Shown piece after piece: positions 43,001 through 64,000 of a stretch of DNA of 64,000 bases; the stretch's first letter is position 1, and each line of letters begins with the position of its first letter. Below the pieces are notes generated by a model that saw nothing but the letters and a program-made list of their open reading frames with translations, did no database searches and was not told the DNA's origin. A program made the translations under genes and the position numbers. This DNA is from a bacterium (GTDB taxonomy: Bacteria > UBA9089 > CG2-30-40-21 > SBAY01), in NCBI GenBank assembly GCA_040755795.1, contig JBFLXS010000002.1:5109-69108 (forward strand), given 5' to 3'.

Positions 43001-46000
43001 ACGATACGAGGCACAGGTTATGCGGCGAATGAGTTAATTTATATCCACTTTGGCACAACAAATACGATAACGACAACATCTGTAGATGGACAGGGTAGCT
43101 GGACAACCACCTTTACCATAGATACACAACCTTATGGCTCTACAACCATAACAGCGGTAGGGTTGAGTTCAGGTCAGGCAAGCAATGACTTTAAGATACT
43201 GCCAGAAATATGGTCAGTGGAGTTAGCCGAAGGGACAGTAGGAACAATTGTTACGATACGAGGCACAGGCTATGCGGCGAATGAATTAGTTTATATTCAC
43301 TTTGGGACAACAAAGACAATCACAACGACCTCAGCCGCAATCGAAGGTAGTTTCACGACGACATTTACCGTCGATACACAACCTTATGGTTCGACGACAA
43401 TCACTGCGGTAGGCTTGAGTTCAAGTTCTGCAATAAATGACTTCAAGATACTGCCCGAATTATGGTCAGGGGTGCTTGCCGAAGGGACAGTAGGGACAAT
43501 CGTAACGATACGAGGCACCGGTTATGCGGCGAATGAGTTAGTTTATATCCACTTTGGCACAACAAAGACAATTACCACGACCTCAGCCTCAATCGAAGGT
43601 AGTTTCACGACGACATTTACCATTGATACGCAACCGTATGGTTCGACAACGATAACAGCGGTTGGATTGAATTCAGGTAGTGCCATAAATGACTTCAAGA
43701 TATTACCGGAATTATGGTCTGTAACACCAAAAGAAGGGACAGTAGGGACAATCGTAACGATACGAGGCACAGGCTATGCGGCGAATGAGTTAATTTACAT
43801 TCACTTTGGCACAACAAAGACAATTACCACGACCTCAGCCTCAATCGAAGGTAGCTGGACGACGACATTCACTGTTGATACACAGGGATTTGGCTCAACG
43901 ACAATAACCGCTGTAGGATTAAATTCCGGCAGTGCGATAAATTACTTCAAGATAACTGTTGAGTTATATTCAGTAACACCAACAGAGGGCACAGTAGGAA
44001 CAATAATTACGATTAAAGGCACAGGTTATAAAGCCAATGAAGAAGTAAGAATAGACTTTGGCACAACATCAAGTATTACTACGACGCAGGCAGATGAAAC
44101 AGGTAGCTGGACAGTTACATTTACCATAAATACACAACCTTATGATACAACTACAATCAAGGCAACAGGATTAACCTGTCAGGGAGAAGGGATTAATTAC
44201 TTCAAGATACTGCCAGAGTTATGGTCAGTGGTGTTAGCCGAAGGGACAGTAGGGACAATCATAACGATACGAGGCACAGGCTATGCGGCGAATGAGTTAG
44301 TTTATATTCACTTTGGCACAACAAAGACAATCACGACGACCTCAGCCGCAATCGAAGGTAGCTTCACGACGACATTTACCATCGATACGCAACCTTATGG
44401 TTCGACAACGATAACAGCGGTTGGATTGAATTCAGGTAGTGCCATAAATGACTTCAAGATACTGCCAGAGTTATGGTCAGTAGTATTAGCCCAAGGGACA
44501 GTAGGGACAATTGTAACGATACGAGGTACAGGGTATGCGGCGAATGAGTTAGTCTATATCCACTTTGGCACAACAAAGACAATCACGACGACCTCAGCGG
44601 CAATCGAAGGTAGTTTCACGACGACATTTACCATCGATACGCAACCTTATGGTTCGACGACAATCACTGCGGTAGGTCTGAGTTCAGGTAGTGCCATAAA
44701 TGACTTCAAGATACTGCCAGAATTATGGTCAGTGGTGTTAGCCGAAGGGACAGTAGGGACAATCGTTACAATCCGAGGCACAGGCTATGCGGCGAATGAG
44801 TTAATTTACATCCACTTTGGGACAACAAAGACGATTACCACGACCTCATCGGCAATCGAAGGGAGCTGGACCACAACATTTACTGTTAATACACAACCAT
44901 ATGGTTCAACAACAATTACTGCGGTAGGTTTGAATTCAGGCGAGGCGATAAATGACTTTAAGATAATACCAGAATTATGGTCTGTAACTCCAACTTCCGG
45001 AACAGTAGGTACCAGTATTACTATAAGAGGCACGGGTTATTGTGGGACAGAGGTAGTTTATATCCACTTTGGTATAACCAATACGATTACTACGGTTGTT
45101 TCAGATATAGAGGGTAGTTGGACAATTACATTTACTGCTGATGCTCAACCTTATGCAACTACTACTATAATAGCAGGAGGACAGCATAATGCACATCAGG
45201 CAAGCAATTTCTTCTCTATGAAGAGTAGGATTGTTGAGATAGTGCCACCTAAAGGTGCTATTGGACTTGAAATTACAGTTTATGGTGATGGATTTGGTGC
45301 CTCAGAATCTGTCCGGATTGATTTTAGCGACAAACCGACATTAACTTATGTTACTTCTCAACGAAATGGGCAATTTACCGCTATCTTTACTGTTCCTGAT
45401 GTATCTGCTAATCAAACAGTAACGGCTACAGGTCTTACAACGGGTGCGGAAGGTATAGATACATTTACGGTTATACCTGGTATCTCATTTATATCACCTA
45501 CCTTTGGGACTATTGGAACTATAGTTGATATTAGAGGAAGTGGTTTTGGTGTAGGAAATGAAATAAGAATAGATTTTGGCACAACGAGAAGTATTGTCGT
45601 CCTAACTGCTGATACGAGTGGAAGATTTGTTACTACCTTTACTGTTGATACTCAACCTTCAGGTTCAACTACTGTTATGGTCCAGGATGTGTTAACTTCA
45701 GCTTTTGAAGATAGAATATTTGATATTATTGGAAGAATTACCTATACTACACCTCTCATTGGAACTGTTGGGACAACTATTACCGTGCAAGGAGATGGTT
45801 ATGGAGCTACCGAGACAATACGGATTAGTTTTGGAACAACTACGACTATCGGAACAGCGACTTCAAATGCCGTAGGAACTTATACCGCTATCTTCACCAT
45901 TGATACTCAACCTTATGGAAATACGACTGTGGTAATTAAAGGTTTAACTTCTGGTGAAGAAGAAATAACACAAGTATTTATTATACCTAATATTATTGTA

Positions 46001-49000
46001 GTTACACCTGATAGAGGTAGTGTGGGGACAATAATTACTTTGAAAGGAAATGGATACAAGGCGAATGAAACAGTTCAAATTGACTTTGGTAATTATTCTA
46101 CTATCACTACCACTTCAAGTGATAACATTGGTTCATTTACTACAACCTTTACTATTGATACCCAGAAATATGGTGTTACAACTATTATTGCCAGAGGATT
46201 AGATTCAAGTTATGCTGTTGATGACCTGTTTATTATACCTAATATCATCACCGTTACGCCTTCAATTGGAACTGTGGGAACGATAATAACCGTAGCCGGT
46301 AATGGTTATGGGGCGTCAGAGACAATAACCATTAGTTTTGGAACACATCCAACTATAACGACTACTTCTACGGATGAAATAGGGTCATTCACGACTACCT
46401 TTACGATAGATACCCAGAGATATGGAACAACAACGATTATTGCTACCAATATGAGTTCGGCAGAAGGCTACTTCTTCATTATTCCAAATATAATTAACAT
46501 TACACCTAAGTCTGGAACTGTGGGCACAATAATAACATTGCAAGGTAATGGATTTGGAGCCTCCAAGACTTTAAGCATAGACTTTGGAACTACATCTACT
46601 ATTCAAATTACCTCTACTTATGCCGAAGGCAGCTTTACCACTACCTGGACAATTGATACTCAACCTTATGGTATCACCACTATTACTACCCATGGAAGTA
46701 AGGATGCATCAGGAACATTTACCATCTTACCTAATATCATTCTGATTACACCGAGTTCAGGGACAGTGGGAACGATAATAACCGTGAGAGGAAATGGCTA
46801 TGCCGCATCGGATACGGTAAGAATAGCATTTGGTATCACTCCAACAATTCAATTAGTTTCTACAGAAATATATGGTAGCTTCACTACCACATTTACTATA
46901 GATACTCAACAATATGGCATAACAACGATTGTTGCTCATGGAGATGCACAAGGCATTTCGGCTCAAGGGACTATTAGTATTCAACCCAATATCATTCTTG
47001 TTACACCAACTTCAGGAACCGTAGGAACGATAATAACCTTAAGAGGAAATGGATATTGGGCATCCGAGACAATCAGGGTAGAATTTGGGACTACGCCAAC
47101 TATACAACTAACCTCTACTTATGCAGAAGGTAGTTTCACCACCACATTTACTATAGATACACAACCTTATGGCATAACAACTATTATTGCTCATGGAAAC
47201 GGGATATTATCCGCAGGCACATTAACCATATTACCTAATACCATTTTGATTACACCGAGTTCAGGGACAGTAGGAACGATAATAACTGTGAGAGGGAATG
47301 GATATGAGGCATCGTCGGTAATCAGGGTAGAATTTGGGACTACACCTACAATACAACTAACTTCTACCTATGCCGAAGGCAGCTTTACCACTACATTTAC
47401 TATTGATACACAACCTTATGGCATAACAACTATTATTGCTCATGGAAACTGGATATTAGCAGAAGGGACATTAACCATATTACCTAATATTATTCTGATT
47501 ACACCAGATTCAGGGACAGTAGGAACGATAGTAACATTAAGAGGAAATGGTTATCGGGCATCCGAGAGAATCAGGGTAGAATTTGGGACTACGCCAACAA
47601 TACAGATAACCTCTACCTACGCAGAGGGAAGTTTCACCACCACATTTACCATAGATACACAACAGGCGGGTATAACAACCATTATTGCCTATGGAGACGG
47701 AATATTAGCCGAAGGAACATTAACTGTGTCATCGAATATTGTTCTGGTTACACCAGATTCTGGAACAGTGGGAACAGTAATAACCGTGAGAGGAAATGGA
47801 TTCAGGGCATCAGATACGATAAGGATAGATTTTGGAGTAACTCGAACAATTCAATTAACTTCTACTTATGCCGAAGGGAGCTTTACTACTACATTTACGA
47901 TTGACACGCAAAACTATGGTTCTACAACAATAACAGCATCAGATTTAGATTCACGGCAGGCGGTTAGATACTTTAAGATACTGCCAGAACTTTGGTTTGT
48001 AACTTCAACCGAAGGAACAGTAGGAACTATAGTAACGATAAGAGGGACAGGATATGCGGCGAATGAGTTAGTTTATATCCACTTTGGAACGACAAAGACG
48101 ATAACAACTACATCTTCAGCCAATGAAGGTAGCTTTACCACTACATTTACTATTGATACACAACCTTATGGCTCTACAACCATAACAGCCTTAGGATTAA
48201 GTTCAGATAAGGCAAGCAACTACTTTAAGATACTATCTTCAGTTTATGAAGTTACACCGATTGAAGGGACGGTAGGAACAATCGTTACCATCAGTGGAAT
48301 GGGATATGGGGCGTTCAAAGACATAACCATACATTTTGGCACAACTAATACCATTACTACTACTTCTACGAATATAGCAGGGTCATTTACTACAACATTT
48401 ACCGTAGATACACAACCTTATGGCACGACAACGATAACGGCATTAGGTTCTGTGGCAATTAACCACTTCAAGATACTGCCAGAGTTGTGGTATGTCAATC
48501 CAGCAGAAGGGACAGTAGGTAAGGTAGTAACAATTCGAGGGACAGGCTATGCGGCGAATGAGTTAGTCTATGTCCACTTTGGCACAACTAATACAATAAC
48601 GACAACATCTGTAGATATAGAGGGTAGCTTCACAACAACATTTACCATAGATACACAACCTTATGGCTCTACAACCATAACAGCGGTAGGTTTGAGTTCC
48701 GGTCAGGCAAGCAATGACTTCAAGATACTGCCAGAATTATGGTATGTCAGTCCAGTAGAAGGGACAGGAGGGAGTATAGTAACAATTCGAGGGACAGGCT
48801 ATGCGGCGAATGAGTTAGTCTATATTCACTTTGGCACGACTAACACGATAACAACTACTTCTTCAGCCAATGAAGGTAGTTTCACCACTACATTTACCAT
48901 AGATACACAACCTTATGGTTCTACAACGATTACAGCATTAGGTTTGAGTTCAGATAAGGCAAGTAATTACTTTAAGATACTATCTTCAGTTTATCAAGTT

Positions 49001-52000
49001 ACGCCGACTGAAGGGACGGTAGGGACAATCGTTACCATAAGTGGAATGGGTTATGGGGCGTTCAAAGACATAACCATACATTTTGGCACGACAAACACCA
49101 TTACTACTACTTTATCGAACATAGCAGGTTCATTTACCACTACCTTTACCATAGATACACAACCTTATGGCACGACAACGATAACCGCATTAGGTTCTGT
49201 GGCAATTAACCACTTCAAGATACTGCCAGAGTTGTGGTATGTCAATCCAGCAGAAGGGACGGTAGGTAAGGTAGTAACGATTCGAGGGACAGGATATACG
49301 GCACAGGAATTAGTCTATATCCACTTTGGCACGACCAACACCATAACGACAACATCTGTAGATGAACAGGGTAGCTTCACAACGACATTTACCATAGATA
49401 CACAACCTTATGGCTCTACAACGATAACAGCGTTAGGCTTAAGTTCAGGTCAAGCGATAAATGACTTCAAGATATTGCCAGAATTATGGTCTGTCAATCC
49501 AGCAGAAGGGACAGTAGGGAAGGTAATAACGATTCGCGGGACAGGATATGCGGCACAGGAAACAGTTTACATTCACTTTGGCACGACAAATACGATAACG
49601 ACAGTATCATCCGATGTCCAGGGTAGCTTCACGACTACATTTACCATAGATACACAATCTTATGGCTCTACAACGATAACAGCCGTAGGTTTGAGTTCAG
49701 ATAAGGCTATTAACTACTTTATGATATTATCTTCAGTTTATGAGGTTACGCCAACTGAAGGGACGGTAGGAACAATAGTTACCATCAGTGGAATGGGATA
49801 TGGGGCGTTTAAAGATATAACCATACATTTTGGCACGACCAATACCATTACCACTACCTCATCGAATATAGCCGGTTCATTTACTACTACCTTTACTATA
49901 GATACACAGCCTTATGGGACGACAACGATAATCGCTATAGGTTCTAAGGCAATTAACTATTTCAAGATACTGCCAGAATTATGGTATGTCAATCCAGCAG
50001 AAGGGACGGTAGGTAAGATAATAACGATTCGAGGGACAGGATATGCAGCGAATGAGTTAGTTTATGTTCATTTTGGCACGACTAATACGATAACGACAAC
50101 ATCTGCAGATGTCCAGGGTAGCTTCACCACTACATTTACCATAGATACACAACCTTATGGTTCTACAACTATAACAGCGTTAGGGTTAAGTTCAGGTCAG
50201 GCGAGCAATGACTTCAAGATACTACCAGAATTATGGTCTGTCAATCCAGCAGAAGGAACAGTAGGGAAGGTAGTAACGATTCGAGGGACAGGATATGCGG
50301 CGAATGAGTTAGTCTATATCCACTTTGGGACGACAAAGACGATAACAACTACATCTGCAGATGGACAGGGTAGCTGGACAACAACATTTACCATAGATAC
50401 ACAATCTTATGGTTCTACAACCATAACAGCGGTAGGATTGAATTCAGGTTCAGCTATCAATTATTTCAAGATACTGGTAGAGTTATATTCCATTACACCG
50501 ACAGAAGGAACAGTAGGGACGATAGTTACTATTAAAGGAACAGGATATAACGCTAATGAAGAGATAAGGATAGATTTTGGAGTTAAATCAACGATAACTA
50601 CGACACAAGCAGATGAAACAGGCAGCTGGACAGCTACATTTACCATAGACACGCAACAGTATGGTAGAACAACTATTAAGGCAACTGGATTAACCTGTCA
50701 GGGAGAAGGAATTAACTACTTCAAGATACTGCCAGAATTATGGTATGTTGAGCCAGCAGAAGGAACAGTAGGAAATATCGTAACGATTCGAGGGACAGGC
50801 TATGCGGCGAATGAATTAGTCTATATCCACTTTGGCACAACTAACACGATAACGACTACATCTGTAGATATACAGGGTAGCTTCACCACTACCTTTACCA
50901 TAGATACGCAACCTTATGGCTCTACAACGATAACAGCGTTAGGGTTGAGTTCAGGACAGGCAAGCAATGACTTCAAGATACTGCGAGAATTATGGTCAGT
51001 GGTGCTTGCGGAAGGGACAGTAGGGACAATCGTAACGATACGAGGCACCGGCTATGCGGCAAATGAGTTGATTTATATCCACTTTGGGACAACAAAGACG
51101 ATTACAACGACATCAGCGGCAATTGAAGGTAGTTTCACAACGACATTTACTATTGATACACAACCGTATGGTTCGACGACAATCACTGCGGTAGGTCTGA
51201 GTTCAGGTAGTGCCATAAATAACTTCAAGATACTGCCAGAGTTATGGTCAGTGGTGCTTGCGGAAGGGACAGTAGGAACAATCGTAACGATCCGAGGCAC
51301 CGGTTATGCGGCGAATGAGTTAGTCTATATCCACTTTGGCACAACTAATACTATAACGACTACATCTTCAGATGGACAGGGTAGCTGGACAACAACCTTT
51401 ACCATAGATACACAATCTTATGGCTCTACAACGATAACAGCGTTAGGCTTGAGTTCAGATAAGGCTATTAACTACTTTATGGTATTATCTTCAGTTTATG
51501 AGGTTACGCCAACTGAAGGGACGGTAGGGACGATAGTTACCATCAGTGGAATGGGATTTGGGGCGTTCAAAGATATAACCATACATTTTGGCACGACTAA
51601 TACGATTACGACCACTGTGTCAAATATAGCAGGTTCATTTACCACAACATTTACCATAGATACACAGCCTTATGGCACGACAACGATAATCGCTTTAGGT
51701 TCGAAGGCAATTAACTACTTTAAGATACTGCCAGAATTGTGGTATGTCAATCCAGCAGAAGGGACAGTAGGAAGTATAGTAACGATACGAGGGACAGGGT
51801 ATGCGGCGAATGAGTTAGTTTATATCCACTTTGGCACAACTAATACCATAACAACTACATCTTCAGATATTCAGGGTAGTTTCACCACAACATTTACAAT
51901 TGATACCCAGAATTATGGCTCTACAACCATAACAGCTTTGGGATTAAGTTCAGGCCAGGCTATTAATGATTATAAGATAATGCCAGCTGTCTGGTATGTC

Positions 52001-55000
52001 ATTCCACCAAAGGGAACAGTTGGCAGCACGGTGATGATAAGAGGGACAGGGTATGAAGCCAATGAGTTAGTTTATATCCACTTTGGGACAACAAAGACGA
52101 TAACAACTACATCTGCAGATATAGAAGGTAGCTGGACAACTACATTTACCATAGATACACAACCTTATGGCAGCACAACGATAATCGCATTAGGGTTAAG
52201 TTCAGACAAGGCGACTAATTACTTTATGATTGTTCCAAGATTATGGTATGTGAGTCCAGTAGAAGGGACAGTAGGGAGTGTAGTAACGATTCGTGGAACA
52301 GGATATGCGGCTTATGAGCCAGTAAATATCTTCTTTGGAACTACGGTATTACCTATTATGCAAACCTTAGTAGATGTTGAAGGAAGTTTCACCACGACAT
52401 TTACTGTTGATACACAACCTTATGGCACTACGACGATAGTGGCTACTGGTGTGAATTCTCTTATTCCAGATGCTAATTATTTCAAGATACTGCCAGAATT
52501 ATGGTATGTCAGTCCAGCAGAAGGGACAGTGGGTACGGTAGTAACGATTCGAGGGACAGGCTATGCGGCGAATGAATTAGTCTATATCCACTTTGGCACG
52601 ACTAATACGATAACGACAACATCTGTAGATGGACAGGGTAGCTTCACAACTACATTTACCATAGATACACAATCTTATGGTAGCACAACCATAACAGTCT
52701 TAGGGTTAAGTTCAGGTCAGGCGAGCAATGACTTCAAGATACTGCCAGAATTATGGTCTGTCAATCCAGCAGAAGGGACAGTAGGTAAGATAGTAACGAT
52801 AAGAGGAACAGGCTATGCGGCGAATGAGTTAGTTTATATCCACTTTGGCACAACTAATACCATAACGACTACATCTTCAGCCATAGAAGGTAGCTTTACC
52901 ACTACATTTACCGTAGATACGCAGTCTTATGGTTCTACAACTATTACCGCCGTAGGGTTGAGTTCAGACAAGGCAACTAATTACTTTATGATATTATCTT
53001 CAGTTTATGAGGTTACACCGACTGAAGGAACGGTAGGGACAATCGTTACCATCAGTGGAATGGGATTTGGGGCGTTCAAAGATATAACCATACATTTTGG
53101 CACGACTAAGACGATTACTACTACTTCTTCGGATATAGCCGGTTCATTCACCACTACCTTTACTATAGATACACAACCTTATGGAACGACAACGATAACC
53201 GCTTTAGGTTCGAAGGCAATTAACTACTTCAAGATACTACCAGAATTATGGTATGTTAATCCAGCCGAAGGGACAGTAGGTCAGGTAGTAATGATTCGGG
53301 GGACAGGCTATGCGGCGAATGAGTTGGTCTATATCCACTTTGGCACAGCAAATACAATCACGACGACCTCAGCCGGAATTGAAGGTAGTTTCACGACGAC
53401 ATTTACTATTGATACACAACCTTATGGCTCTACAACCATAACAGCATTAGGTTTGAGTTCAGATAAGGCAATAAATGACTTCAAGATACTGCCAGAGTTA
53501 TGGTCAGTGGTGCTTGCGGAAGGGACAATAGGAACAATCGTAACAATCCGAGGCACCGGCTATGCGGCGAATGAGTTAATTTATATCCACTTTGGCACAA
53601 CAAATACAATCACGACGACCTCAGCGGCAATTGAAGGTAGTTTCACGACGACATTTACTATTGATACACAACCGTATGGTTCGACGACAATCACTGCGGT
53701 AGGTCTGAGTTCAGGTAGTGCCATAAATAACTTCAAGATACTGCCAGAATTATGGTCAGTGGTGTTAGCCGAAGGGACAGTGGGGACAATCGTAACAATC
53801 CGAGGCACCGGCTATGCGGCGAATGAGTTAATTTACATTCACTTTGGCACAACTAATACAATTACGATGACCTCAGCCGCAATCGAAGGTAGTTTCACGA
53901 CGACATTTACTATTGATACACAACCTTATGGCTCTACAACCATAACAGCATTAGGTTTGAGTTCAGATAAGGCAATAAATGACTTCAAGATACTGCCAGA
54001 GTTATGGTCAGTGGTGCTTGCGGAAGGGACAGTTGGAACAATTGTAACGATTCGAGGCACCGGCTATGCGGCGAATGAGTTAATTTACATTCACTTTGGG
54101 ACAACAAAGACAATCACGACGACCTCAGCCGCAATTGAAGGTAGTTTCACGATGACATTTACCATTGATACACAACCTTATGGTTCGACGACGATAACAT
54201 CAGTTGGCTTGCATTCAGGTAGTGCCATAAATGACTTCAAGATATTGCCGGAATTATGGTCTGTAACACCAAAAGAAGGGACAGTTGGGACAATCGTCAC
54301 AATTCGAGGGACAGGATATGCGGCGAATGAGTTAATTTATATCCACTTTGGGACAACAAATACAATCACGACGACCTCATCCGCAATTGAAGGTAGTTTC
54401 ACGACGACATTTACCATTGATACACAACCTTATGGTTCGACGACGATAACAGCGGTTGGATTGAATTCAGGTAGTGCCATAAATGACTTCAAGATACTAC
54501 CAGAATTATGGTCTGTCAGTCCAACAGAAGGGACAGTAGGTAAGATAGTAACAATTCGAGGAACAGGCTATGCGGCGAATGAGTTAATTTACATTCACTT
54601 TGGCACAACTAATACCATAACGACAACATCTGCAGATGGACAGGGTAGCTGGACTACAACCTTTACTATAGATACACAATCTTGTGGCTCTACAATTATT
54701 ACAGCCGTAGGGTTGAGTTCAGGTTCAGCTATCAATTACTTCAAGATAATGGCAGAATTATATTCAGTTACACCGACAGAAGGAACGGTAGGAACTATTG
54801 TTACGATTAGAGGAACAGGGTATTTAGCCAGTGAGCAAATAAGGATAGACTTTGGAGTTAAATCAACGATAACGACAACACAAGCAGATGGAATAGGTAG
54901 TTGGACAGTTACCTTTACCATAGATACCCAGGCCTATGGTAACACTACCATTAAATCTACTGGATTAATATCTCAGGGAGAAGGGATTAACTACTTCAAG

Positions 55001-58000
55001 ATACTACCAGAGTTATGGTCAGTGGTGCTTGCTGAAGGGACAGTAGGAACAATTGTTACAGTCCGAGGCACAGGCTATGCGGCGAATGAGTTGGTCTATA
55101 TCCACTTTGGCACAACTAACACGATAACGACAACATCTGCAGATATAGAAGGTAGCTTCACCACAACATTTACTATTGATACACAACCTTATGGTTCTAC
55201 AACCATAACAGCGTTAGGTTTGAGTTCAGACAAGGCAATAAATGACTTCAAGATACTGCCAGAGTTATGGTCAGTGGTGCTTGCTGAAGGGACAGTAGGA
55301 ACAATTGTTACAATCCGAGGCACAGGCTATGCGGCACAGGAATTAATTTACATCCACTTTGGGACAACAAATACAATCACGACGACCTCAGTCGCAATTG
55401 AAGGTAGTTTCACAACAACATTTACTATTGATACACAACCTTATGGTTCAACGACAATCACTGCGGTAGGTCTGAGTTCAGGTAATGCGATAAATAACTT
55501 CAAGATACTGCCAGAATTATGGTCAGTGGTGTTAGCCGAAGGGACAGTAGGGACAGTAGTGACGATACGAGGCACAGGTTATGCGGCGAATGAATTAATT
55601 TACATTCACTTTGGGACAACAAATACAATTACGACGACCTCAGCCGCAATTGAAGGTAGTTTCACAACGACATTTACTATTGATACACAGCCTTATGGTT
55701 CGACGACGATAACAGCAGTCGGCTTGAATTCAGGTAGTGCGATAAATTACTTCAAGATACTGCCAGAGTTATGGTCAGTGGTGTTAGCCGAAGGGACAGT
55801 GGGGACAGTAGTGACGATACGAGGCACCGGTTATGCGGCGAATGAGTTAATTTACATTCACTTTGGCACAACTAACACGATAACAACAACATCTGCAGAT
55901 GGACAGGGTAGCTGGACAACTACATTTACCATAGATACTCAACGCTATGGTTCAACAACCATTACTGCCGTAGGTTTGAGTTCTTCATCTGCTATTAATT
56001 ACTACAAGATAACTCCTGATTTATGGTATGTAAGTCCAACGCAAGGAACGGTTGGAACAATTGTTACCATTAGAGGCACGGGTTACTCAGTTGGTGATGT
56101 CCGAATAGACTTTGGAACGACAAGAACTATCACCACTACACAGGCGGTTGCAGAAGGTAGTTTCACCACTACATTTACTGTGAATATTCAACCTGTAGGC
56201 AAGACGACTATTGCCGCAGTGGGCATTAATGGCGAAGGAAATATTAACTTCTTTACCATCACAGGTGGAATTAGAATATCACCTACCACTGGGACAGTAG
56301 GAATAGTAGTAACGGTGTTTGGTAATGGATATGCTTCAACAGAGCAGGTGAGGGTTGATTTTGGCACCACTCCTACCCTGTCAATAGTTACAGCGGAGCC
56401 AGTAGGGACATTTATTGCTATGTTCACTGTTACCACTCAACCTTATGGCACGACAACGGTTACGGCTACTGGACCAATAACAGGGTCTGCGATAGACTTC
56501 TTTGTCATTACACCTGAATTATTTAGTGTTATACCAAATGCAGGGACAGTAGGTAGCATAGTAATAATTCGAGGCACAGGTTATGCGGCGAATGAGAGAG
56601 TTTATATCCACTTTGGGACAACTAATACGATAACTACTACATCTTCAGACATAGAAGGAAGCTGGACAACAACATTTACTATAGATACACAACCTTACGG
56701 TTCTACAACCATAATAGCGTTAGGCTTGAGTTCAGGTTCAGCTATTAACTATTGCAAGATACTGCCAGAGTTATGGTCAGTAGTGCTTGCGGAAGGGACA
56801 GTAGGGACAATCGTCACAATCCGAGGCACAGGCTATACGGCGAATGAGTTAGTTTATATTCACTTTGGCACAACTAATACGATAACCACTACATCTGCAG
56901 ATATAGAGGGTAGCTGGACAACTACATTTACTATAGATACTCAACCTTATGGTTCTACAACGATAACCGCCATAGGGTTAAGTTCGGGTTCAGCCATAAA
57001 TGACTTCAAGATACTGCCTGAATTATGGTTCGTCAATCCAGCAGAAGGAACAGTAGGCAAGATAGTGATGATAAGAGGAACAGGCTATGCGGCGAATGAG
57101 GCAGTTTATATCCACTTTGGCACAACAAAGACGATAACAATGGTATCTTCAGTTATTGAAGGTAGTTTCACAACAACATTTACCATAGATACACAACCTT
57201 ATGGCACAACGACCATTGTTGCCTCAGGATTGAATTCAGGAGAGGCGATTAATTACTTCAGAGTCCTGCCGGAGGTATTCAGTGTTACTCCGAAAGAAGG
57301 CACAGTGGGAACAATAGTTACTATTCGTGGGACAGGATATGGTGCAAATAAGATAATTAATGTTCACTTTGGAACAACAAATACTATTACTACGGCGAGT
57401 TCAGATATAATTGGTTCATTTACCGCAACATTTACTGTGGATACGCAACCTTATGGCACAACAACTATTGTTGCTACAGGTTGTTCGGCAATTAACTACT
57501 TCAAGATATTACCAGATGTTTGCTATGTTACGCCTACATCAGGGACTGTGGGAAGTATTGTGACGGTTCGTGGAACAGGCTATGCGGCTTCAGAAGAGGT
57601 CTATGTCCATTTTGGCACAACAAAGACGATTACAACTACGGTTTCTGCTCAAGAAGGTAGCTTCACCACGACATTTACTGTGGATACACAAGTTTATGGC
57701 ACAACAACAATTATTGCGGTAGGATTAGGTTCAGGAGAGGCGATTAATTATTATAGGATAACTCCTGATTTGTGGTATGTCAATCCACAACAAGGCACAG
57801 TAGGAACAATTGTTACGATTAAAGGCACAGGTTATACCCCTGGTGAGGTGCGAATAGACTTTGGCACAACTCAAACTATTACTACTACTCAGGCAGATAA
57901 TACAGGTAGTTTGACGACGACATTTACCATAGATACGCAACCATTAGGTATAACAACTATTGCGGCAGCTGGTGCTAATGCTGAAAGAAATATTAACTTC

Positions 58001-61000
58001 TTCACGATTACTGGTGGTATTAGAATATCGCCAACTACGGGTTCAGTAGGAACGATAGTAACCGTGTTTGGTAATGGTTATGCGGCAACAGAACAAGTCC
58101 GTGTTGATTTTGGGACAACACCAACATTAGCCATAACAACAACTGATAATATAGGTTCATTTACGGTAACCTTTACCGTAACGACACAACCTTATGGAAC
58201 AACAACTATCATTGTTACCGGAGCAGAGGCAGGTTCTGTCTGCATTACCTTCTTCATCACGCCAGATGTATTTATGGTTAGTCCAGATACAGGAACAGTG
58301 GGAACAGTAATTACTATTCGTGGGACAGGTTATGCTGGGAGAGAAGATGTTTATATCCACTTTGGCACAACGCAGACGATTACCATTACTACTTCAGCTA
58401 TTGAAGGCAGTTTCACGACGACATTTACCATTGATACACAGCCGTATGGTAGCACGACCATTACGGGATTAGGCTTAAATTCCAGTTCAGCTATTAATTA
58501 CTTTAAGATTATACCGCAGATTATTCAGGTTACACCAGATACAGGAACAGTTGGAACAATAATTACGATTCGTGGGACAGGATATGGAAATGGCGAAGAT
58601 GTCTTCATCCACTTCGGCACGACACAAACGATTACCAGGACTATTACCGATATAGAAGGCAGCTGGACTACAACATTTACTATTGATACACAACCGTATG
58701 GGACGACGACAATTACTTCTGTGGGAGAGACTACACCGCAGGCGATTAATTACTTTAAGATTACACCAGAAATAATTAGGGTTACGCCAACTCAAGGCAC
58801 AGTGGGAACAATAGTAACAATTCGTGGGACAGGTTATGCCGGGACAGAAGAAGTCTATATCCACTTTGGCACAACGAAGACGATTACGACTACGGTTTCA
58901 GATATCGCTGGTAGCTGGACAACAACATTTACGATTGACCCACAGGCTTATGGCTCAACAACCATTACTGCGCTTGGATTACGGTCAGATTCAAATATTG
59001 CTTACTTCAAAGTGTTAGGCGAATTATACTTAGTTTCACCGAAGGAAGGGACCGTGGGGACGATAGTAACCATTAGTGGAACAGGATATCAATCCAGTGA
59101 GACTGTCCAGATAAGTTTTGGCAACAAGACGACGATAACTACAGGTCATGTAATAGACACAGGCGTCTTTATCCTTACATTTACAATTGATACGCAGGTT
59201 TATGGGTCAACAACAATTATTGCCACTGGTCTCTCATCAGCCATAGAAGGTATTAATTACTTTAAGATAATACCAGATGTAATTATGGTGAGTCCATCAA
59301 TTGGGACTGTGGGGACAATCGTTACCATTCGTGGGACTGGTTATGCCGGATTAGAAGAGTTGTATGTCCATTTTGGCACGACAAAGACAATTACTACAAC
59401 GACTTCAGATATGGAAGGTAGCTGGACAACAACATTTACTATTGATACACAACCGTATGGTTCAACAACAATTACCGTGTTAGGATTTGGTTCTGGAGAG
59501 GATATTTCCTACTTTAAGATAACACCTCAAATTTGGGATGTTACACCGACTTCAGCGACAGTAGGAACAATAATTACCATTCGTGGCACAGGTTATGCCG
59601 GGACAGAGGAGATTTATATCCACTTTGGCACGAATAAGACGATTACTACTACTGTTTCTGCCATAGAAGGAAGTTGCACAACAACATTTACCATTGATAC
59701 ACAACCTTATGGCACGACAACGATTCTCGCAGGAGGCTTGAAGTCTGATGAGGCAATTAATTACCTGAAGATAACTCCACAATTAGTTTCAGTAACACCA
59801 ACAGAGGGAACAATAGGAACACTAATAACTATTTGTGGAACAGGTTATGCCAGCAGTGAGACAGTTTATATCCACTTTGGGATACGCAATACTATTACCA
59901 CTACTGTTTCAGGCATCGAAGGAAGTGTGACAACTACCTTTACCATTGATACTCAACCTTATGGAACGACAACTGTGGTAGCATTAGGCTTGAAGTCCGC
60001 AGTTGCCATTAATTACTTTAAGATATTACCGGCATTGTTTATGGTCAGTCCAACAGAAGGGACTGTGGGCACAATAGTAACAATAAGAGGTAATGGTTAT
60101 ATTGGGACAGAAGAGATTTATATCCACTTTGGCACAACAAGGACGATTGCCACGGTTATCTCAGAGCTACAGGGAAGCTTTACCACAACATTTACAGTGG
60201 ATACACAACCTTATGGGTCAACAACTATCACAGGCGTTGGTAGTTGTGGTGAGTCAATTAACTACTTTAAGATTACACCAGAGTTGTGGTTTGTAACTCC
60301 AACAAAAGGAACAATAGGAACAATTCTAACTATTCGTGGAACTGGTTATACGCCAGGTGAGGTGCGAATAGACTTTGGCACGACAGAATCTATCACCCTT
60401 ACTCAAGCAGAAATAGAGGGAAGTTTCACCACGACATTTACCGTAAATACACAAATATTAGGTAAGACAACAATTAGAGCCACAGGTATTAATCAGGAAA
60501 CCAATATTAACTATTTTGTGATTATTGGTGGAGTTGAGGTATCGCCGACATCTGGCACGGTTGGGTCAATAGTGACGGTATGTGGAACAGGATATGCGGC
60601 AAGTGAAGAGATAAGGATTAATTTTGGCACAACACCTTCAATTACGAAAGTTATCGCTACTGAAGCGGGAACATTTACCGTAACCTTTACCATTGATACA
60701 CAACCTTATGGCACCACCACCGTTAGAACGATAAGTTCAGATACAGGTTCAGCCACAACTTACTTTACCATTCTACCCGACCTGTGGCAAGTTAGTCCAT
60801 CAGAAGGCACAGTAGGAACAATAGTTACTATTCGTGGGACAGGTTATGCCTATCAAGAAACAGTTTCGATACATTTTGGAACAACATTTACCATTACCAC
60901 AGCTCAAGGTTCTAAACAAGGTAGCTGGACGACGAAATTCACAGTAGATATGCAACCTTGTGGTAGCACCACGATTACTGCCGTAGGTGATACATCAGGC

Positions 61001-64000
61001 ACGGCTATTAACTATTTTGTCATAAATCCAGAAATATACTCTGTAACTCCAACTCAAGGGACAGTTGGAACAATAGTTACCATTAAAGGTAGTGGTTACA
61101 GGCTAAGTGATGACATACAGATAGATTTCGGCACTACATTAACTATTATGGTTGCTTCTTCTAATGATGCAGGGACATTTACCGCTACCTTTACTATAGA
61201 TACTCAAGCCTACGGAACTACAACCATAACCGCCAAAGGTTCAGCAGTGGGAATAGCGGTGAATTACTTCAAGATAACTCCAGATGTATTTTTTGTTTCA
61301 CCAACAGAGGGCACCGTTGGGACAATAATTACTATTCGTGGTACAGGTTATGCCGGTGGTGAGACAGTAGATATTCATTTTGGCAGGGCTAAGACCATCA
61401 CCACAGCGTTAGTAGATGCACAGGGCACTTTCACTACTACCTTTACCATAGATACACAACCTTATGGAACAACTACAATTACGGGAGTTGGTCCCACCTC
61501 TTCGCAGGCAATTAATTACTTTAAGATATTATCAGAGATAGTTTCGGTTACTCCAACGGAAGGAACGGTAGGAACAATAGTTACTATCTGCGGAACTGGT
61601 TATAGAGATACAAAGAGAGTTTATATCCACTTTGGCACGACTAATACTATTACAACAACTACTTCAGATTATGAAGGTTCATTTACTACTACCTTTACCA
61701 TTGATACTCAACCTTATGGCACAACAACGATAATGGCAGTAGGGTCTCCACAGGCAATCAACTACTTCAAGATATTACCGGATGTTATCTTTGTCAGTCC
61801 AACATCAGGCACGGTTGGAACTATAGTTACTGTTCGTGGAACGGGTTATGCTGGCACAGAGGAAGTTTATATCCACTTTGGCACTACCAATACCATAACT
61901 ACTACCGTATCCGCTATACAGGGTAGTTGGACAACGACATTTACCATAGATACCCAATCTTATGGAACAACTACAATAATAGCCGTAGGATTAAAGTCAG
62001 GAGAGGATTATAATTACTTCTTTATAAATTCAATGACTTATCTAACTCCTTTACAGGGAACAGTAGGTCAGTTGGTAACCATAAGGGGTGAAGGTTATAA
62101 TGATGGAGAGACTATAGCTATACACTTTGGAGAGATTTTGACTATATGTACTGCACTGGTGGCTCAAGAAGGTTCATTTACGGCTATATTTACTGTTGAT
62201 ACTCAGATTTTTGGGACAAAGACAATAACCGTAGTAAGTGAGATTGAAACGAGAACTCATTTGTTTAAGATAAGAGGTGGAGTGATAGTATCGCCCAGAA
62301 GTGGAATAGTGGCGACACTTGTTACCCTGTATGGAACAGGATATGGAGCCAGTGAGCCAATCATCATAGGTTTTGGTGGTAATCCAACCATATCTTGTGC
62401 AACAACCTCTGATAATGGGACATTCTCAACGCAATTTATGGCTGATGTTCAGGTACCTGGTCCGGTGGTAATTACTGCCAGTGGTTTGATAACCGGTGAA
62501 GTAGCATCTACTACCTTTACGCTGGTCAGAATATTCTTAAATCCAAATGTTGGCTATGGACAAAAAGATGCAATTACTCTAATCTCAGGTAAAGGATTTA
62601 TGGAGGGAGCAACCGTAACTGCTAATTCTATTAAATTCAATGGTGCATTTACCGCACAACATCCCCCAATAACTATTCAACCAGGAGGTAATTTACCAAC
62701 AACTACTTTGACATTACCAGCGATGCCGTGGGGAACTTATACGGTTCATATGATAGTTTCAGGAGAGGAATTTGTATTTGCAGATAGTTATAGAGTTATA
62801 CCGCGGATTATAATGAATCCAGGTGCGGGTAGTGGTCAGACGGGTAATACAAGTACTATAACAGGTTCAGGATTCTATGGGACGACAGGTGGAACGACTA
62901 TACTAATGAATAGTATTAAGGTAGGTGGCAATCCGACTGAACATCCAGAAGTGGTTGTATCTGATGTGGGAACATTCTCAGTTACAGTTGCTCTGTCACA
63001 ACTTAACCAAGCAGGGGGTTATGCGGCAGATATTGTCCAGACTAAGGAAAATATAGGTTCATGGACATATAGATTTGAAAATGTCTATTATCGAACTTCA
63101 CCACCTCAGTTACGATGGACAGGAGAGTCTGGTTATACACAGGATGGACTTAATCCAGAAGAGGGTCTAAATACTACAATTTATACTTACCGTATAAGAT
63201 ATTACGATTTTGATAATGATGACCCATTACCTGGCTATCCAAAGGTGATTATTTATAAAGGTACTAATGTTTATGCTTCATTGACTATGACAAAGATAGA
63301 TAATTATCTACCGAGGTCAGCTCCACGATATGAAGTTCAAACAACCCTTCCAGATGGAATGTACTCCTATTATATTGTGGCGTATGATAAATGGGGAGCG
63401 CCAGCCAATGGTGTCTCAGGAGTATGGCGTGAGGGACCAAGAGTAGGACAATTCCCAACACTTAGATGGGTAGGCGCACCTGACTATATCAATACGGGTG
63501 TATCTCCAAAAGTTGGCTCTGAGGGAACGCTATTTAATTATCGGGTAGTGTATCGAGATTCAAGTAATCGGCCACCAGTATTTGGGACAAATAGCCCAAT
63601 AGTGATTATAGAAAAAGATGGATTACCCTATGCCACTTATACTCTGGGTACTATTTCCTTGCTGGGAGGAACTGCAACTCCTTATCGAGATGGTGTGATT
63701 TATGGTACTGAGACTTCTCTTCTGGTAAGAGGTTCATATACACATAGATTTAAAGTACAAATAGCCATAGGAACGGATACATTTATAGAAGCACAGGGAA
63801 CGCCAACATTAATCAATTCAGGACCGACAGTGGTAACCCTTCCATATCTTAGTTGGTTAGGAGCACTAGGATATACGGATGATGGCGTAGAACCCGATAT
63901 TGGACAGATAGGAGATATCTTTGAATTTAAGGTGAAATATACAGGTTCTACTGCACCTGAATTGATACGACTATATCTTATGAGTCAAAATGGAACAATT
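2..64000 (+). CDS. Internal fragment of a giant repetitive protein gene, partial at both ends, at least 21,333 codons in this window. It encodes tandem IPT/TIG-like Ig-fold domains (extender array) followed by a distinct distal domain module. Probably an extracellular or cell-surface fibrillar adhesin-like protein.
   Basis: Phase-2 reading frame on the + strand hand-translated with no stop codon. Checked in register at 68, 9983, 22022, 36485, 50051, 59942, 63842 and 63998 (all congruent to 2 mod 3). Every unit-length difference is a multiple of 3. The ORF track lists no phase-2 + strand ORF, as expected for a stop-free frame without an in-window terminus. Variation between units is mainly codon third positions and conservative substitutions. 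Neither start nor stop codon is in the window. Confidence 0.9.
22598..24601 (+). repeat. Higher-order repeat copy A (8 units) of the 22.1-28.1 kb block
   Basis: Begins with the PEIILISPKEG and QLTQVSPPQG marker units and ends with the ...GISFKGTVT unit. The next copy starts at 24602. Confidence 0.75.
24602..26359 (+). repeat. Higher-order repeat copy B (7 units)
   Basis: Same ordered succession of unit variants as copy A with one unit fewer. Nucleotide identity to A and C is visibly above 90%. Confidence 0.75.
26360..28140 (+). repeat. Higher-order repeat copy C (7 units). The last unit decays into the diverged units that follow.
   Basis: Same marker pair at 26360-26893. Carries a 3-aa in-frame insertion (HQDDDGLKVEG) in one unit. 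The array diverges after about 28140 (NIILITPTAGTVGRTITIAGNGFGATEKIQIDFG). Confidence 0.7.
28141..35340 (+). repeat. About 29 diverged IPT/TIG-like units, including atypical units with loop insertions (28.7-29.9 kb) and a degenerate unit at 30.84-31.0 kb
   Basis: Hand translation. Same motif skeleton, low inter-unit identity. Confidence 0.8.
35341..56000 (+). repeat. About 82 near-identical 252 bp / 84 aa units. Consensus ELWSVVLAEGTVGTIVTIRGTGYAANELVYIHFGTT(K/N)TITTTSAAIEGS(F/W)TTTFTIDTQPYGSTTITAVGL(N/S)SG(S/E)AINDFKILP. Includes embedded variant units and sub-HORs.
   Basis: Adjacent units, e.g. 38413-38664 vs 38665-38916, differ at only a handful of nucleotides. Antisense artefact ORFs (MPRIVTIVPTVPSASTTDHNSG...) recur with exactly 252-bp or 504-bp spacing (38251 and 38503; 39007 and 39259; 40239-end and 40743-end). 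Confidence 0.9.
56001..62040 (+). repeat. About 24 moderately diverged units related to the 35-56 kb family (..IRGTGYAG(T/L)EE(V/I)YIHFGTT(K/N)TITTTVS(D/A)IEGSWTTTFTIDTQPYG..), punctuated by 'ITPDLWYV(S/N)P..G.VRIDFG' and 'ITGGIRISPTTG..VFGNGYA.TEQVRVDFG' marker units
   Basis: Hand translation. Marker pairs at about 56010/56270, 57760/58020 and 60290/60520. Confidence 0.8.
62041..62527 (+). other. Two terminal, degenerate IPT/TIG-like units closing the extender array (INSMTYLTPLQGTVGQLVTIRGEGYNDGETIAIHFG... and RGGVIVSPRSGIVATLVTLYGTGYGASEPIIIGFGGNPTIS...)
   Basis: The motif skeleton is retained but strongly diverged. They are the last units carrying G-x-G-Y-x-x-x-E and F-T-V-D-T-Q-like motifs. 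Confidence 0.7.
62528..63091 (+). other. Two domains with a more classical IPT/TIG signature (RIFLNPNVGYGQKDAITLISGKGFMEGATVTANSIKFNG...YTVHMIVSGEEF and RIIMNPGAGSGQTGNTSTITGSGFYGTTGGTTILMNSIKVGGNPTEHPEVVVSDVGTFSVTV...)
   Basis: Pattern P-x-x-G-x-x-x-G-x-T-x-I-T-(L/I)-x-G-x-G-F ... (V/I)-K-(F/V)-(N/G)-G ... V-x-V, as in IPT/TIG/plexin-type Ig-like domains. Sequence family differs from the upstream array. Confidence 0.5.
63092..64000 (+). repeat. At least 3 copies (third truncated by the window) of a different repeat of about 120-130 aa: P-x-L-(R/S)-W-x-G-x-x-x-Y-x-x-x-G-(V/L)-x-P-x-x-G-x-x-x-T-x-(F/Y)-x-(Y/F)-(R/K)-(I/V)-x-Y-x-D...P ... (V/I)-x-(I/L)-x-x-x-G-x-x-Y-A. Unnamed beta-rich repeat, a candidate distal functional module.
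   Basis: Copy 1 at 63092-63451 (PPQLRWTGESGYTQDGLNPEEGLNTTIYTYRIRYYDFDNDDPLPGYPKVIIYKGTNVYASLTMT...). Copy 2 at 63452-63838 (FPTLRWVGAPDYINTGVSPKVGSEGTLFNYRVVYRDSSNRPPVFGTNSPIVIIEKDGLPYATYTLG...). Copy 3 from 63839 (LPYLSWLGALGYTDDGVEPDIGQIGDIFEFKVKYTGSTAPELIRLYL...). Confidence 0.6.

What the first reader, a model, noticed from the sequence alone, without database searches (positions are those of the whole stretch)
63092..64000. Unassigned repeat of about 120-130 aa with a W-x-G-x-x-x-Y-x-x-x-G-(V/L)-x-P ... Y-(R/K)-V-x-Y-x-D ... P signature (3 copies visible)
The three copies share a strict skeleton. They are PPQLRWTGESGYTQDGLNPEEGLNTTIYTYRIRYYDFDNDDPLPGYPKVIIYKGTNVYASLTMT, FPTLRWVGAPDYINTGVSPKVGSEGTLFNYRVVYRDSSNRPPVFGTNSPIVIIEKDGLPYATYTLG and LPYLSWLGALGYTDDGVEPDIGQIGDIFEFKVKYTGSTAPELIRLYL. 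Overall identity is low, implying an old, functionally constrained domain rather than a recent duplication. I cannot assign it to a named family from memory. It might be a previously uncharacterised beta-sandwich module of giant surface proteins.
Basis: seen in the sequence. Interest (0 to 1): 0.55.

Follow-up and report, generated by a model that had tools for sequence, protein, structure and literature searches.

The report
Unnamed Ig-like repeat in giant protein
The three repeats are real copies of a widespread but unnamed immunoglobulin-like beta-sandwich module. They start a second repeat array at the end of a giant, probably extracellular, bacterial protein, which makes this a tidy but fairly ordinary find.

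Summary
Nt 63098-64000 encode three tandem copies (117 aa, 129 aa, and 55 aa cut by the window end).

They lie at the 3' end of one open frame filling the whole window (>=21,333 codons), after 246 back-to-back IPT/TIG-like units.

Neither Pfam-A nor NCBIfam matches the copies (E<=1). A profile of the three copies finds 1,688 protein clusters, 952 of them at E<=1e-10. Named relatives are mostly uncultivated Elusimicrobiota and neighbouring phyla, with up to ~27 confident copies per protein. About half of a scanned subset end in a type IX secretion (T9SS)-type C-terminal sorting domain.

An acidic loop, D-x-D-[N/G]-D-x-P, co-varies with a distal Asp. Copy 1 has both and copy 2 has neither.

I read this as a structural stalk or spacer repeat, possibly Ca2+-stiffened, not an enzyme or a proven carbohydrate binder. 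It is a new member of a known kind, of low to moderate interest.

The parts
63098..63448 (+). Copy 1 (aa 21033-21149, 117 aa). A complete unit with all family hallmarks, including the acidic loop DFDNDDP and the distal Asp.
63206..63226 (+). Copy 1 acidic loop D-F-D-N-D-D-P (aa 21069-21075), between the second and third main strands (B and C). It is a candidate Ca2+ ligand loop.
   Evidence: Family columns 37-43: D 90%, D 70%, N/G 85%, D 67%, P 96%. The loop co-varies with the distal Asp.
63386..63388 (+). Copy 1 distal Asp (aa 21129, family column 99), at the start of the loop between the last two strands (F and G). It is coupled to the acidic loop.
   Evidence: Asp is present in 310/319 units with an intact loop and in 20/41 units that lost the loop (Fisher p=4e-16).
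63449..63835 (+). Copy 2 (aa 21150-21278, 129 aa). A complete unit with the same fold. Its acidic loop has degenerated to DSSNRPP and the distal Asp is replaced by Ile.
   Evidence: The tandem AlphaFold2 model of copies 1+2 has pLDDT 92.6 and pTM 0.73, and copy 2 shows the same strand order.
63836..64000 (+). Copy 3 (aa 21279-21333). Only the first 55 aa are present because the window ends. It has the N-terminal arm and the B strand, and the acidic loop is lost (TGSTAPE).
62534..63097 (+). Junction region (aa 20845-21032): two divergent IPT-like units plus a short linker, between the TIG array and the new repeat.
   Evidence: Read from the sequence. These units match only themselves in self-BLAST. 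The IPT-like label is by eye (G-x-G-F pattern) and was not tested with a model.
65..62533 (+). Context: 246 back-to-back IPT/TIG-like units (median 84 aa) in the same open frame (aa 22-20844).

Best explanation
Nt 63098-64000 encode the first three units of a second tandem array in a giant, probably extracellular, protein. The whole window is one open frame of >=21,333 codons. 246 IPT/TIG-like units precede the new repeat.

Each unit is a ~117-130-aa, seven-strand Ig-like beta-sandwich. It has a family-specific N-terminal arm (P-x-L-x-W-x-G-x3-Y-x2-D-G-x2-P-x2-G). It belongs to a large family with no Pfam or NCBIfam model. The only solved member of that family is the second-to-last all-beta module of the Paenibacillus GH9 xanthanase PspXan9.

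Most likely role (inferred): a structural stalk or spacer, with possible adhesive capacity, that strings into a rod and holds other parts of a cell-surface or secreted protein away from the cell. In relatives the units sit between enzymatic or beta-propeller head domains and a T9SS-type C-terminal sorting domain.

In typical family units an acidic loop D-x-D-[N/G]-D-x-P and a distal Asp probably form a Ca2+ site. By canonical Ig topology this site would lie at the N-terminal end of the sandwich, facing the preceding unit. A site there would stiffen the junction, as in cadherins and the Salmonella adhesin SiiE. In this window only copy 1 retains that site.

Shown: the repeats are real; they are homologous to the family and to the 6FHJ module; the fold; the domain architectures of relatives; the loop-Asp co-variation. 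Inferred: extracellular location of this particular protein, the stalk role, Ca2+ binding, and the position of the site at the junction.
For: - Repeats are real and significant.
- The window is a single giant open frame with 246 TIG-like units upstream.
- A profile of the three copies finds 1,688 representative proteins at E<=1e-3, 952 at <=1e-10 and 208 at <=1e-30. A local re-scan at domain E<=1e-3 gives up to 27 units per protein.
- Neither Pfam nor NCBIfam has a model covering the units, in the window or in relatives.
- The AlphaFold2 model of copy 1 has pLDDT 97.6. The tandem of copies 1+2 has pLDDT 92.6 and pTM 0.73, with the same strand order in both units.
- Of 59 family proteins scanned, 28 carry FlgD_ig, 8 Por_Secre_tail and 7 CHU_C sorting domains. 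They also carry peptidase, propeller, fn3 and PKD head domains.
- Conserved aromatics alternate along strands (F-x-Y-x-V-x-Y and Y-x-Y-x-F-x-A), the pattern of a buried core, not a surface sugar platform.
- Acidic loop and distal Asp co-vary: 310/319 versus 20/41, p=4e-16. Copy 1 has both and copy 2 has lost both.
- PspXan9 activity and thermostability depend on Ca2+ (table in the review PMC10881899).
Against: - No experiment or coordinate inspection links the acidic loop to Ca2+.
- The Fisher test ignores phylogenetic non-independence. The 41 loop-lost units come from 29 proteins.
- Copies 2 and 3 lack the acidic loop, so Ca2+ stiffening cannot be general here.
- The C-terminus and N-terminus of this protein are outside the window. 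No sorting domain, signal peptide or anchor is seen for it.
- No close relative or source contig could be found to read downstream.
- The only solved homologue sits in a polysaccharide-degrading enzyme directly next to a xanthan-binding module. A glycan-binding role therefore cannot be dismissed.
Confidence: 0.6

Rival explanations
1. The units are carbohydrate-binding modules, either CBM84-like or a new CBM family. On this view the array provides multivalent attachment of the giant protein to a polysaccharide such as a cell wall, capsule or biofilm matrix.
For: - The only solved homologue is a module of a GH9 xanthanase, immediately adjacent to the xanthan-binding CBM84.
- The 'PspCBM84' construct used in PMC10049358 starts at DGRVYT. 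That is inside the homologous module (SEQRES 876), so the published binding construct overlaps it by about 40 residues.
- Deleting the N-terminal beta2+beta3 modules of the related Cohnella xanthanase cut activity 17-fold (PMC11002231).
Against: - The family profile and the isolated 6FHJ module (822-915) do not match the xanthan lyase PXL, which the review PMC10881899 says carries a CBM84, even at E<=10.
- The profile aligns to 822-915 and not to the last 94 residues of the chain.
- Cohnella variants that keep beta1-3 but lack the C-terminal CBM showed no xanthan binding.
- Conserved aromatics follow a buried-core alternation, and no conserved surface aromatic patch is evident.
- Long same-type tandem arrays of tens of units per protein (up to 27 at domain E<=1e-3) are more typical of stalks.
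Confidence: 0.2
2. The units are just divergent members of an already named Ig-like family (Filamin/ABP280, IPT/TIG, cadherin, PKD or fn3) that the models narrowly miss.
For: - Weak sub-threshold Filamin hits occur in 11 of 59 relatives.
- One relative gives a cadherin hit at E=0.039.
- The general fold is Ig-like/E-set.
- The units follow 246 TIG-like units in the same protein.
Against: - Where inspected, the Filamin matches cover only the last 20-30 of 93 profile positions. They correspond to the mid-domain motif 'E-I-S-G-S-P-F-x-M', so they are not collinear with a Filamin repeat. No single stretch passes on its own.
- The window copies lack that motif and give no Pfam hit at all at E<=1.
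- phmmer of the copies against the upstream TIG units finds nothing significant (best E=0.0015, 12 bits).
- Sequence identity to all structural neighbours other than 6FHJ/6FHN is 3-23%.
Confidence: 0.1
3. The similarity is chance or low-complexity, or the frame is not really coding.
For: None found.
Against: - The 64-kb frame has no stop codon.
- Pairwise E-values are down to 4e-11.
- The motif is expected 0.0006 times by chance.
- 1,688 homologous clusters exist elsewhere.
- The AlphaFold2 model is near-perfect in confidence.
Confidence: 0.01

Closest known systems
Second-to-last all-beta module ('beta3' in the nomenclature of PMC11002231) of the Paenibacillus sp. 62047 GH9 xanthanase PspXan9, PDB 6FHJ/6FHN, SEQRES residues ~808-915
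   Same: - True homologue. Family profile E=6e-12 over profile positions 15-118.
- It shares the D-G...P...G arm, the F-x-Y-x-x-x-Y-x-D strand, the Y-x-D-G-x-x-Y-x-Y motif, the Y-F-x-x-x-D strand and the terminal G-P-x-V.
- It has no name and no demonstrated function.
   Different: - It occurs there as a single module inside a secreted enzyme, not in a tandem array.
- The N-terminal P-x-L-x-W-x-G part is not matched at sequence level.
- Its acidic loop reads D-A-N-N-Q-A-P rather than D-x-D-N-D-x-P.
- The host is a cultivated Firmicute rather than uncultivated Elusimicrobiota-like lineages.
CBM84 (xanthan-binding module of PspXan9, the xanthan lyase PXL and Microbacterium MiXen)
   Same: It is adjacent in the same enzyme. 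The published 141-aa-class 'PspCBM84' construct begins inside the homologous module. Both are small beta modules.
   Different: The profile does not align to the C-terminal 94 residues of PspXan9. It also does not hit the PXL lyase chain at E<=10. Membership is therefore not supported, and the exact CAZy boundaries could not be read here.
Ca2+-stiffened Ig-like repeats of giant bacterial adhesins (SiiE BIg domains) and cadherin repeats
   Same: - Long tandem arrays of ~90-120-aa Ig-like sandwiches in very large surface proteins.
- A conserved acidic motif resembling the cadherin D-x-N-D-N-x-P.
   Different: - No sequence homology (9-15% identity).
- The acidic motif lies mid-sequence, after the second main strand, not at the C-terminal linker.
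- Ca2+ binding is untested here.
Ig-like domains that precede the C-terminal sorting domain in T9SS cargo proteins (gingipains, the P. gingivalis peptidylarginine deiminase PPAD, PorU)
   Different: This is fold-level resemblance only. Those proteins carry one such domain, not arrays. The window does not reach the C-terminus, so a sorting domain is not shown for this protein.

Membership tests
Unnamed 'W-x-G / D-x-D-N-D' Ig-like repeat family (xanthanase beta3-like), defined here from 497 units in 250 proteins | Significant profile similarity across the full unit | tested here: met
   A profile of the three window copies retrieves the family. BLASTP of copy 1 reaches 1.9e-24 (51% identity), copy 2 reaches 1.3e-16 and copy 3 reaches 1.4e-12 against family proteins.
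Unnamed 'W-x-G / D-x-D-N-D' Ig-like repeat family (xanthanase beta3-like), defined here from 497 units in 250 proteins | N-terminal arm P3-x-L5-x-W7-x-G9-x3-Y13-x2-D16-G17-x2-P20-x2-G23 | tested here: met
   All three copies have P, L, W, G, Y, G, P and G at these columns. D16 is present in copies 1 and 3 and is T in copy 2.
Unnamed 'W-x-G / D-x-D-N-D' Ig-like repeat family (xanthanase beta3-like), defined here from 497 units in 250 proteins | Acidic loop D37-x-D39-[N/G]40-D41-x-P43 together with the distal D99 | tested here: inconclusive
   Met in copy 1 (DFDNDDP plus D99). Lost in copy 2 (DSSNRPP, I99). The loop is lost in copy 3, whose column 99 lies beyond the window. 41 of 497 family units also lack the loop, so it is typical but not obligatory.
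Unnamed 'W-x-G / D-x-D-N-D' Ig-like repeat family (xanthanase beta3-like), defined here from 497 units in 250 proteins | Seven-strand Ig-like sandwish superposable on the 6FHJ/6FHN module | tested here: met
CBM84 (CAZy) | Sequence similarity to the xanthan-binding C-terminal modules of PspXan9 and PXL | tested here: not met
   The family profile aligns to SEQRES 822-915, not 916-1009. Neither the profile nor the 822-915 segment hits the PXL lyase chain at E<=10. Caveats: the CAZy boundaries and the dbCAN model were not available, and a published CBM84 construct overlaps residues 876-915.
CBM84 (CAZy) | Demonstrated xanthan or other glycan binding | not testable with these tools
   This needs binding assays.
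Pfam PF00630 Filamin/ABP280 repeat | Full-length match above the gathering score (26.9 bits) | tested here: not met
   No hit in the window tail at E<=1. In the relatives inspected, only profile positions ~64-93 match and no single stretch passes on its own. One of the 59 proteins scanned scored 2.8e-21, and the position of that match was not inspected.
Pfam PF01833 IPT/TIG | Match to the TIG model, or to the 246 upstream TIG-like units | tested here: not met
   No Pfam hit. phmmer of the copies against tiles of the upstream protein gives E>=0.0015 and <=12 bits.
Pfam PF00028 Cadherin, PF00801/PF18911 PKD, PF00041 fn3 | Match above the gathering score | tested here: not met
   None in the tail. 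Cadherin scores E=0.039 in one relative. The PKD and fn3 hits in relatives fall on other, separate domains.
T9SS-type cargo protein | C-terminal sorting domain (Por_Secre_tail, FlgD_ig or CHU_C) and an N-terminal signal peptide | not testable with these tools
   Both ends of the protein lie outside the window, and no source contig or close relative was found. A sorting domain is present in many relatives.

The most novel reading that the evidence does not exclude
The units define a new, large domain family, with over 1,600 clusters at 50% identity and no Pfam or NCBIfam model. Its conserved D-x-D-[N/G]-D loop plus distal Asp would form a previously undescribed inter-domain Ca2+ site, making rigid rods in T9SS-type surface proteins of Elusimicrobiota and neighbouring uncultivated phyla. 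Alternatively, the family could be a new glycan-binding (CBM) family whose founding structure is already in the PDB, unrecognised, inside the xanthanase 6FHJ.
Probability: 0.35. Interest if true: 0.4.

Novelty: new member of a known kind. Interest (0 to 1): 0.3.

Why it matters
Tandem Ig-like modules in huge bacterial surface proteins are a well-known kind, so this changes no concept. The practical value is in annotation. The family covers at least 1,688 protein clusters and is invisible to Pfam and NCBIfam, so many proteins from uncultivated phyla are labelled 'hypothetical' or named only after a flanking domain. A curated model, with 6FHJ as its structural anchor, would annotate thousands of domains. 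It would also give a name to an unnamed module of an industrially used xanthanase. The loop-Asp co-variation offers a cheap, testable Ca2+-site hypothesis. The surrounding gene, more than 64 kb of one frame with 246 TIG-like units, is the more striking object, but it was not the finding under review.

Tried and rejected
- **Word-indexed homologue search with the 303-aa tail:** no hit. With the 46-sequence alignment it found only two short fragments. The exhaustive profile search was needed.
- **Exact-match search for the window's last 90 nt** in genome, metagenome and viral contig collections: nothing.
- **Protein-guided locus searches** in genome and metagenome contigs with the tail and the junction: nothing. 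As a result, neither downstream sequence nor taxon could be obtained.
- **AFDB Foldseek library:** not available.
- **Moroz et al. 2018 (ACS Catal 8:6021):** not held. Module boundaries of PspXan9 had to be inferred from secondary papers and from the alignments.
- **Gene neighbourhood of the closest relative P0123:** housekeeping genes only, uninformative.
- **Giant-gene literature:** no description of this repeat.
- **Filamin, cadherin, TIG, PKD and fn3 membership:** rejected, see the membership table.
- **Pfam hits in the upstream TIG array to Flg_hook, SBDS_C and similar:** probably artefacts of summed weak matches, because no single stretch passes on its own.
Full report
**1. What is at the coordinates**

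The frame does not start nearby. Walking back from 63092 finds no stop codon until the start of the window. Nt 2-64000 are therefore one open frame of 21,333 codons, open at both ends, and no other frame has an open stretch of 250 codons or more.

All three are in the last 300 residues, 117 and 129 aa apart, and in this frame only. Composition predicts 0.0006 occurrences. Pairwise BLASTP E-values between the copies are 4e-11, 2e-8 and 1e-9. No further copies lie upstream, and there is no DNA-level repeat.

Refined unit boundaries:

| Copy | aa | nt | Note |
|---|---|---|---|
| 1 | 21033-21149 | 63098-63448 | complete, 117 aa |
| 2 | 21150-21278 | 63449-63835 | complete, 129 aa |
| 3 | 21279-21333 | 63836-64000 | first 55 aa, cut by the window end |

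**2. Context**

Self-comparison shows that aa 1 to about 20,800 are one kind of repeat. An HMM built from those units finds 246 back-to-back units of median 84 aa, from aa 22 to 20,844, with no gap over 30 aa.

Pfam recognises these units as IPT/TIG in the first 5,000 aa (E=2.2e-47, summed over weak stretches). Random unit pairs are 47% identical. A few pairs reach 97.6%, and 3,400 40-mers recur, so some duplications are recent.

Two divergent IPT-like units (aa 20,845-21,030) then lead into the new repeat. The finding is therefore the start of a second array type in a giant tandem-repeat protein.

**3. Is it a known family?**

- Pfam-A and NCBIfam give nothing for the tail at E<=1.
- A word-indexed search found nothing.
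- An exhaustive HMMER search with a profile of the three copies found 1,688 representative proteins at E<=1e-3, 952 at <=1e-10 and 208 at <=1e-30.
- Top hits carry many matched stretches. P0001 (4,089 aa) has 25, and P0005 lists up to 45. A local re-scan at domain E<=1e-3 gives at most 27 units per protein.
- The repeats in these proteins are also blank in Pfam and NCBIfam. P0002, with 12 copies, matches no Pfam family at all.

Only a local motif of consensus-type units ('E-I-S-G-S-P-F-x-M') weakly matches the last 20-30 positions of the Filamin model. Where inspected, no single stretch passes on its own. The match is also not collinear with a Filamin repeat, and the window copies lack the motif.

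Source names, where given, are Elusimicrobia/Endomicrobia, Firestonebacteria, Sumerlaeia, Nitrospiria and Planctomycetota MAGs. The proteins are labelled hypothetical or are named after a flanking domain.

**4. Family signature**

Aligning 497 full-length units from 250 proteins gives this consensus:

x-P-x-L-x-W-t-G-e-x2-Y-x2-D-G-x2-P-x2-G-x3-t-x-F-x-y-r-v-k-Y-t-D-x-d-n-d-x-P-x2-g-y-p-k-v-x-I ... M ... y-x2-G-x2-Y-x-y ... L ... Y-x-Y-x-F-e-A-x-D ... A-x-G-x-P-t ... g-P-x-V

Copy 1 is closer to units in other organisms (51% to P0123) than to copy 2. That confirms ancient divergence.

**5. Fold**

With a 50-sequence alignment, AlphaFold2 models copy 1 at pLDDT 97.6 and pTM 0.89. The model has seven strands, preceded by a ~25-residue N-terminal arm. 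A tandem model of copies 1+2 reaches pLDDT 92.6 and pTM 0.73, and copy 2 has the same strand order.

Structural and sequence matches to the PDB:

| Search | Best hit | Score |
|---|---|---|
| Foldseek, copy 1 | 6FHN/6FHJ | E=2e-5, TM 0.72, 28% identity |
| Family sequence profile | 6FHJ SEQRES 822-915 | E=6e-12 |

**6. What the solved homologue is**

6FHJ/6FHN is the GH9 endo-xanthanase PspXan9 of Paenibacillus sp. 62047 (Moroz et al. 2018, cited in PMC10049358, PMC11002231 and PMC10881899). Its architecture is an Ig-like module, the GH9 catalytic module, modules beta1, beta2 and beta3, and a C-terminal xanthan-binding CBM84.

The homologous module ends at SEQRES 915, leaving 94 residues. It is therefore the second-to-last module (beta3), which has no assigned function. 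In the related Cohnella enzyme, variants that retain beta1-3 but lack the C-terminal CBM do not bind xanthan. Deleting an extra N-terminal beta2+beta3 pair lowers activity 17-fold.

Neither the family profile nor the isolated 822-915 segment hits the xanthan lyase PXL, which the review PMC10881899 says carries a CBM84. CBM84 membership is thus not supported.

One loose end remains. The 'PspCBM84' construct of PMC10049358 starts at DGRVYT, which is SEQRES 876 and lies inside this module. The published binding construct therefore overlaps it by about 40 residues.

**7. How it probably works**

Of 59 family proteins scanned, 28 have a FlgD_ig-type sorting domain, 8 have Por_Secre_tail and 7 have CHU_C. 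Head domains include subtilases, clostripain-like peptidases, beta-propellers (SBBP, BNR, RCC1, Kelch), fn3, PKD and BACON. The units typically lie between the head domain and the sorting domain, or form long arrays.

The conserved aromatics alternate along strands, as buried core residues do. This fits a structural stalk or spacer better than a sugar platform.

The acidic loop D37-x-D39-[N/G]40-D41-x-P43 (D 90%, D 70%, N/G 85%, D 67%, P 96%) follows the second main strand. It has the 1-3-5 spacing of DxDxD-type Ca2+ loops. Column D99, just after the sixth strand, is Asp in 310/319 loop-intact units but in only 20/41 loop-lost units (Fisher p=4e-16, uncorrected for phylogeny).

In canonical Ig topology the loops after the second and sixth strands lie side by side at the N-terminal end of the sandwich. 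In a tandem array that end faces the preceding unit. I therefore infer a junctional Ca2+ site that stiffens the array, as in cadherins and SiiE. PspXan9 is Ca2+-dependent for activity and stability.

In the window, copy 1 keeps both the loop and the Asp. Copy 2 has lost both (DSSNRPP, Ile). Copy 3 has lost the loop. This step is inference only, because I could not inspect coordinates.

**8. Verdict**

The repeat is real. It is an Ig-like beta-sandwich and belongs to a large family with no Pfam or NCBIfam model and one unrecognised crystal structure.

It is a new member of a known kind, namely tandem Ig-like modules of large bacterial surface proteins. Interest is low to moderate, mainly for annotation and for a testable Ca2+-site hypothesis.

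Downstream sequence, taxon and protein termini could not be obtained.

Noticed in passing
window 2-64000 (+): The entire 64-kb window is a single open reading frame of 21,333 codons, open at both ends. No other frame has an open stretch of 250 codons or more. The gene is therefore longer than 64 kb and the protein longer than 21,333 aa, in the size class reported for Omnitrophota-type giant genes. The taxon here is unknown.
   Followed up: partly
window 65-62533 (+): There are 246 back-to-back IPT/TIG-like units (median 84 aa) with no spacer over 30 aa. The Pfam TIG model scores only in the first 5,000 aa; later units are recognised by self-similarity alone. Random unit pairs are 47% identical.
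   Followed up: partly
window, within 65-62533: Some TIG-like units are up to 97.6% identical, and 3,400 40-mers occur more than once. A few blocks were therefore duplicated recently, or the assembly collapsed or expanded repeats there. The affected blocks were not mapped.
   Followed up: no
window 62534-63097 (+): Two divergent IPT-like units (aa 20,845-21,030) match neither the 246-unit array nor the new repeat in self-BLAST. They form the junction between the two arrays.
   Followed up: no
window 15002-60001 (+): Pfam reports Flg_hook (4.6e-8), SBDS_C (3.6e-14) and BACOVA_00961-like hits inside the TIG array, each with no single stretch passing on its own. They look like artefacts of summing weak matches over many near-identical repeats.
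   Followed up: no
PDB 6FHJ chain A, SEQRES 876-915: The 'PspCBM84' construct used in PMC10049358 begins at DGRVYT. This lies inside the module homologous to this repeat (roughly its last three strands), not at a domain boundary. The published CBM84 fusion therefore appears to carry about 40 residues of the preceding module.
   Followed up: partly
P0001 (4,089 aa): This is the best-scoring relative. It has a signal-peptide-like N-terminus, then three blocks of Pur_ac_phosph_N-like plus fn3 domains, each followed by one unit. About 22 tandem units follow, and then a Por_Secre_tail sorting domain. It is a plausible template for what lies downstream of the window.
   Followed up: partly
L001 10001-12091 (P0123, Elusimicrobia MAG): This is the closest relative of copy 1 (51% identity). 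Its architecture is an SBBP beta-propeller, two units, a BACON_2 domain and a weak T9SS-type sorting domain. Its neighbours are housekeeping genes (Lon, ClpX, PFK), so there is no operon-level clue to function.
   Followed up: yes
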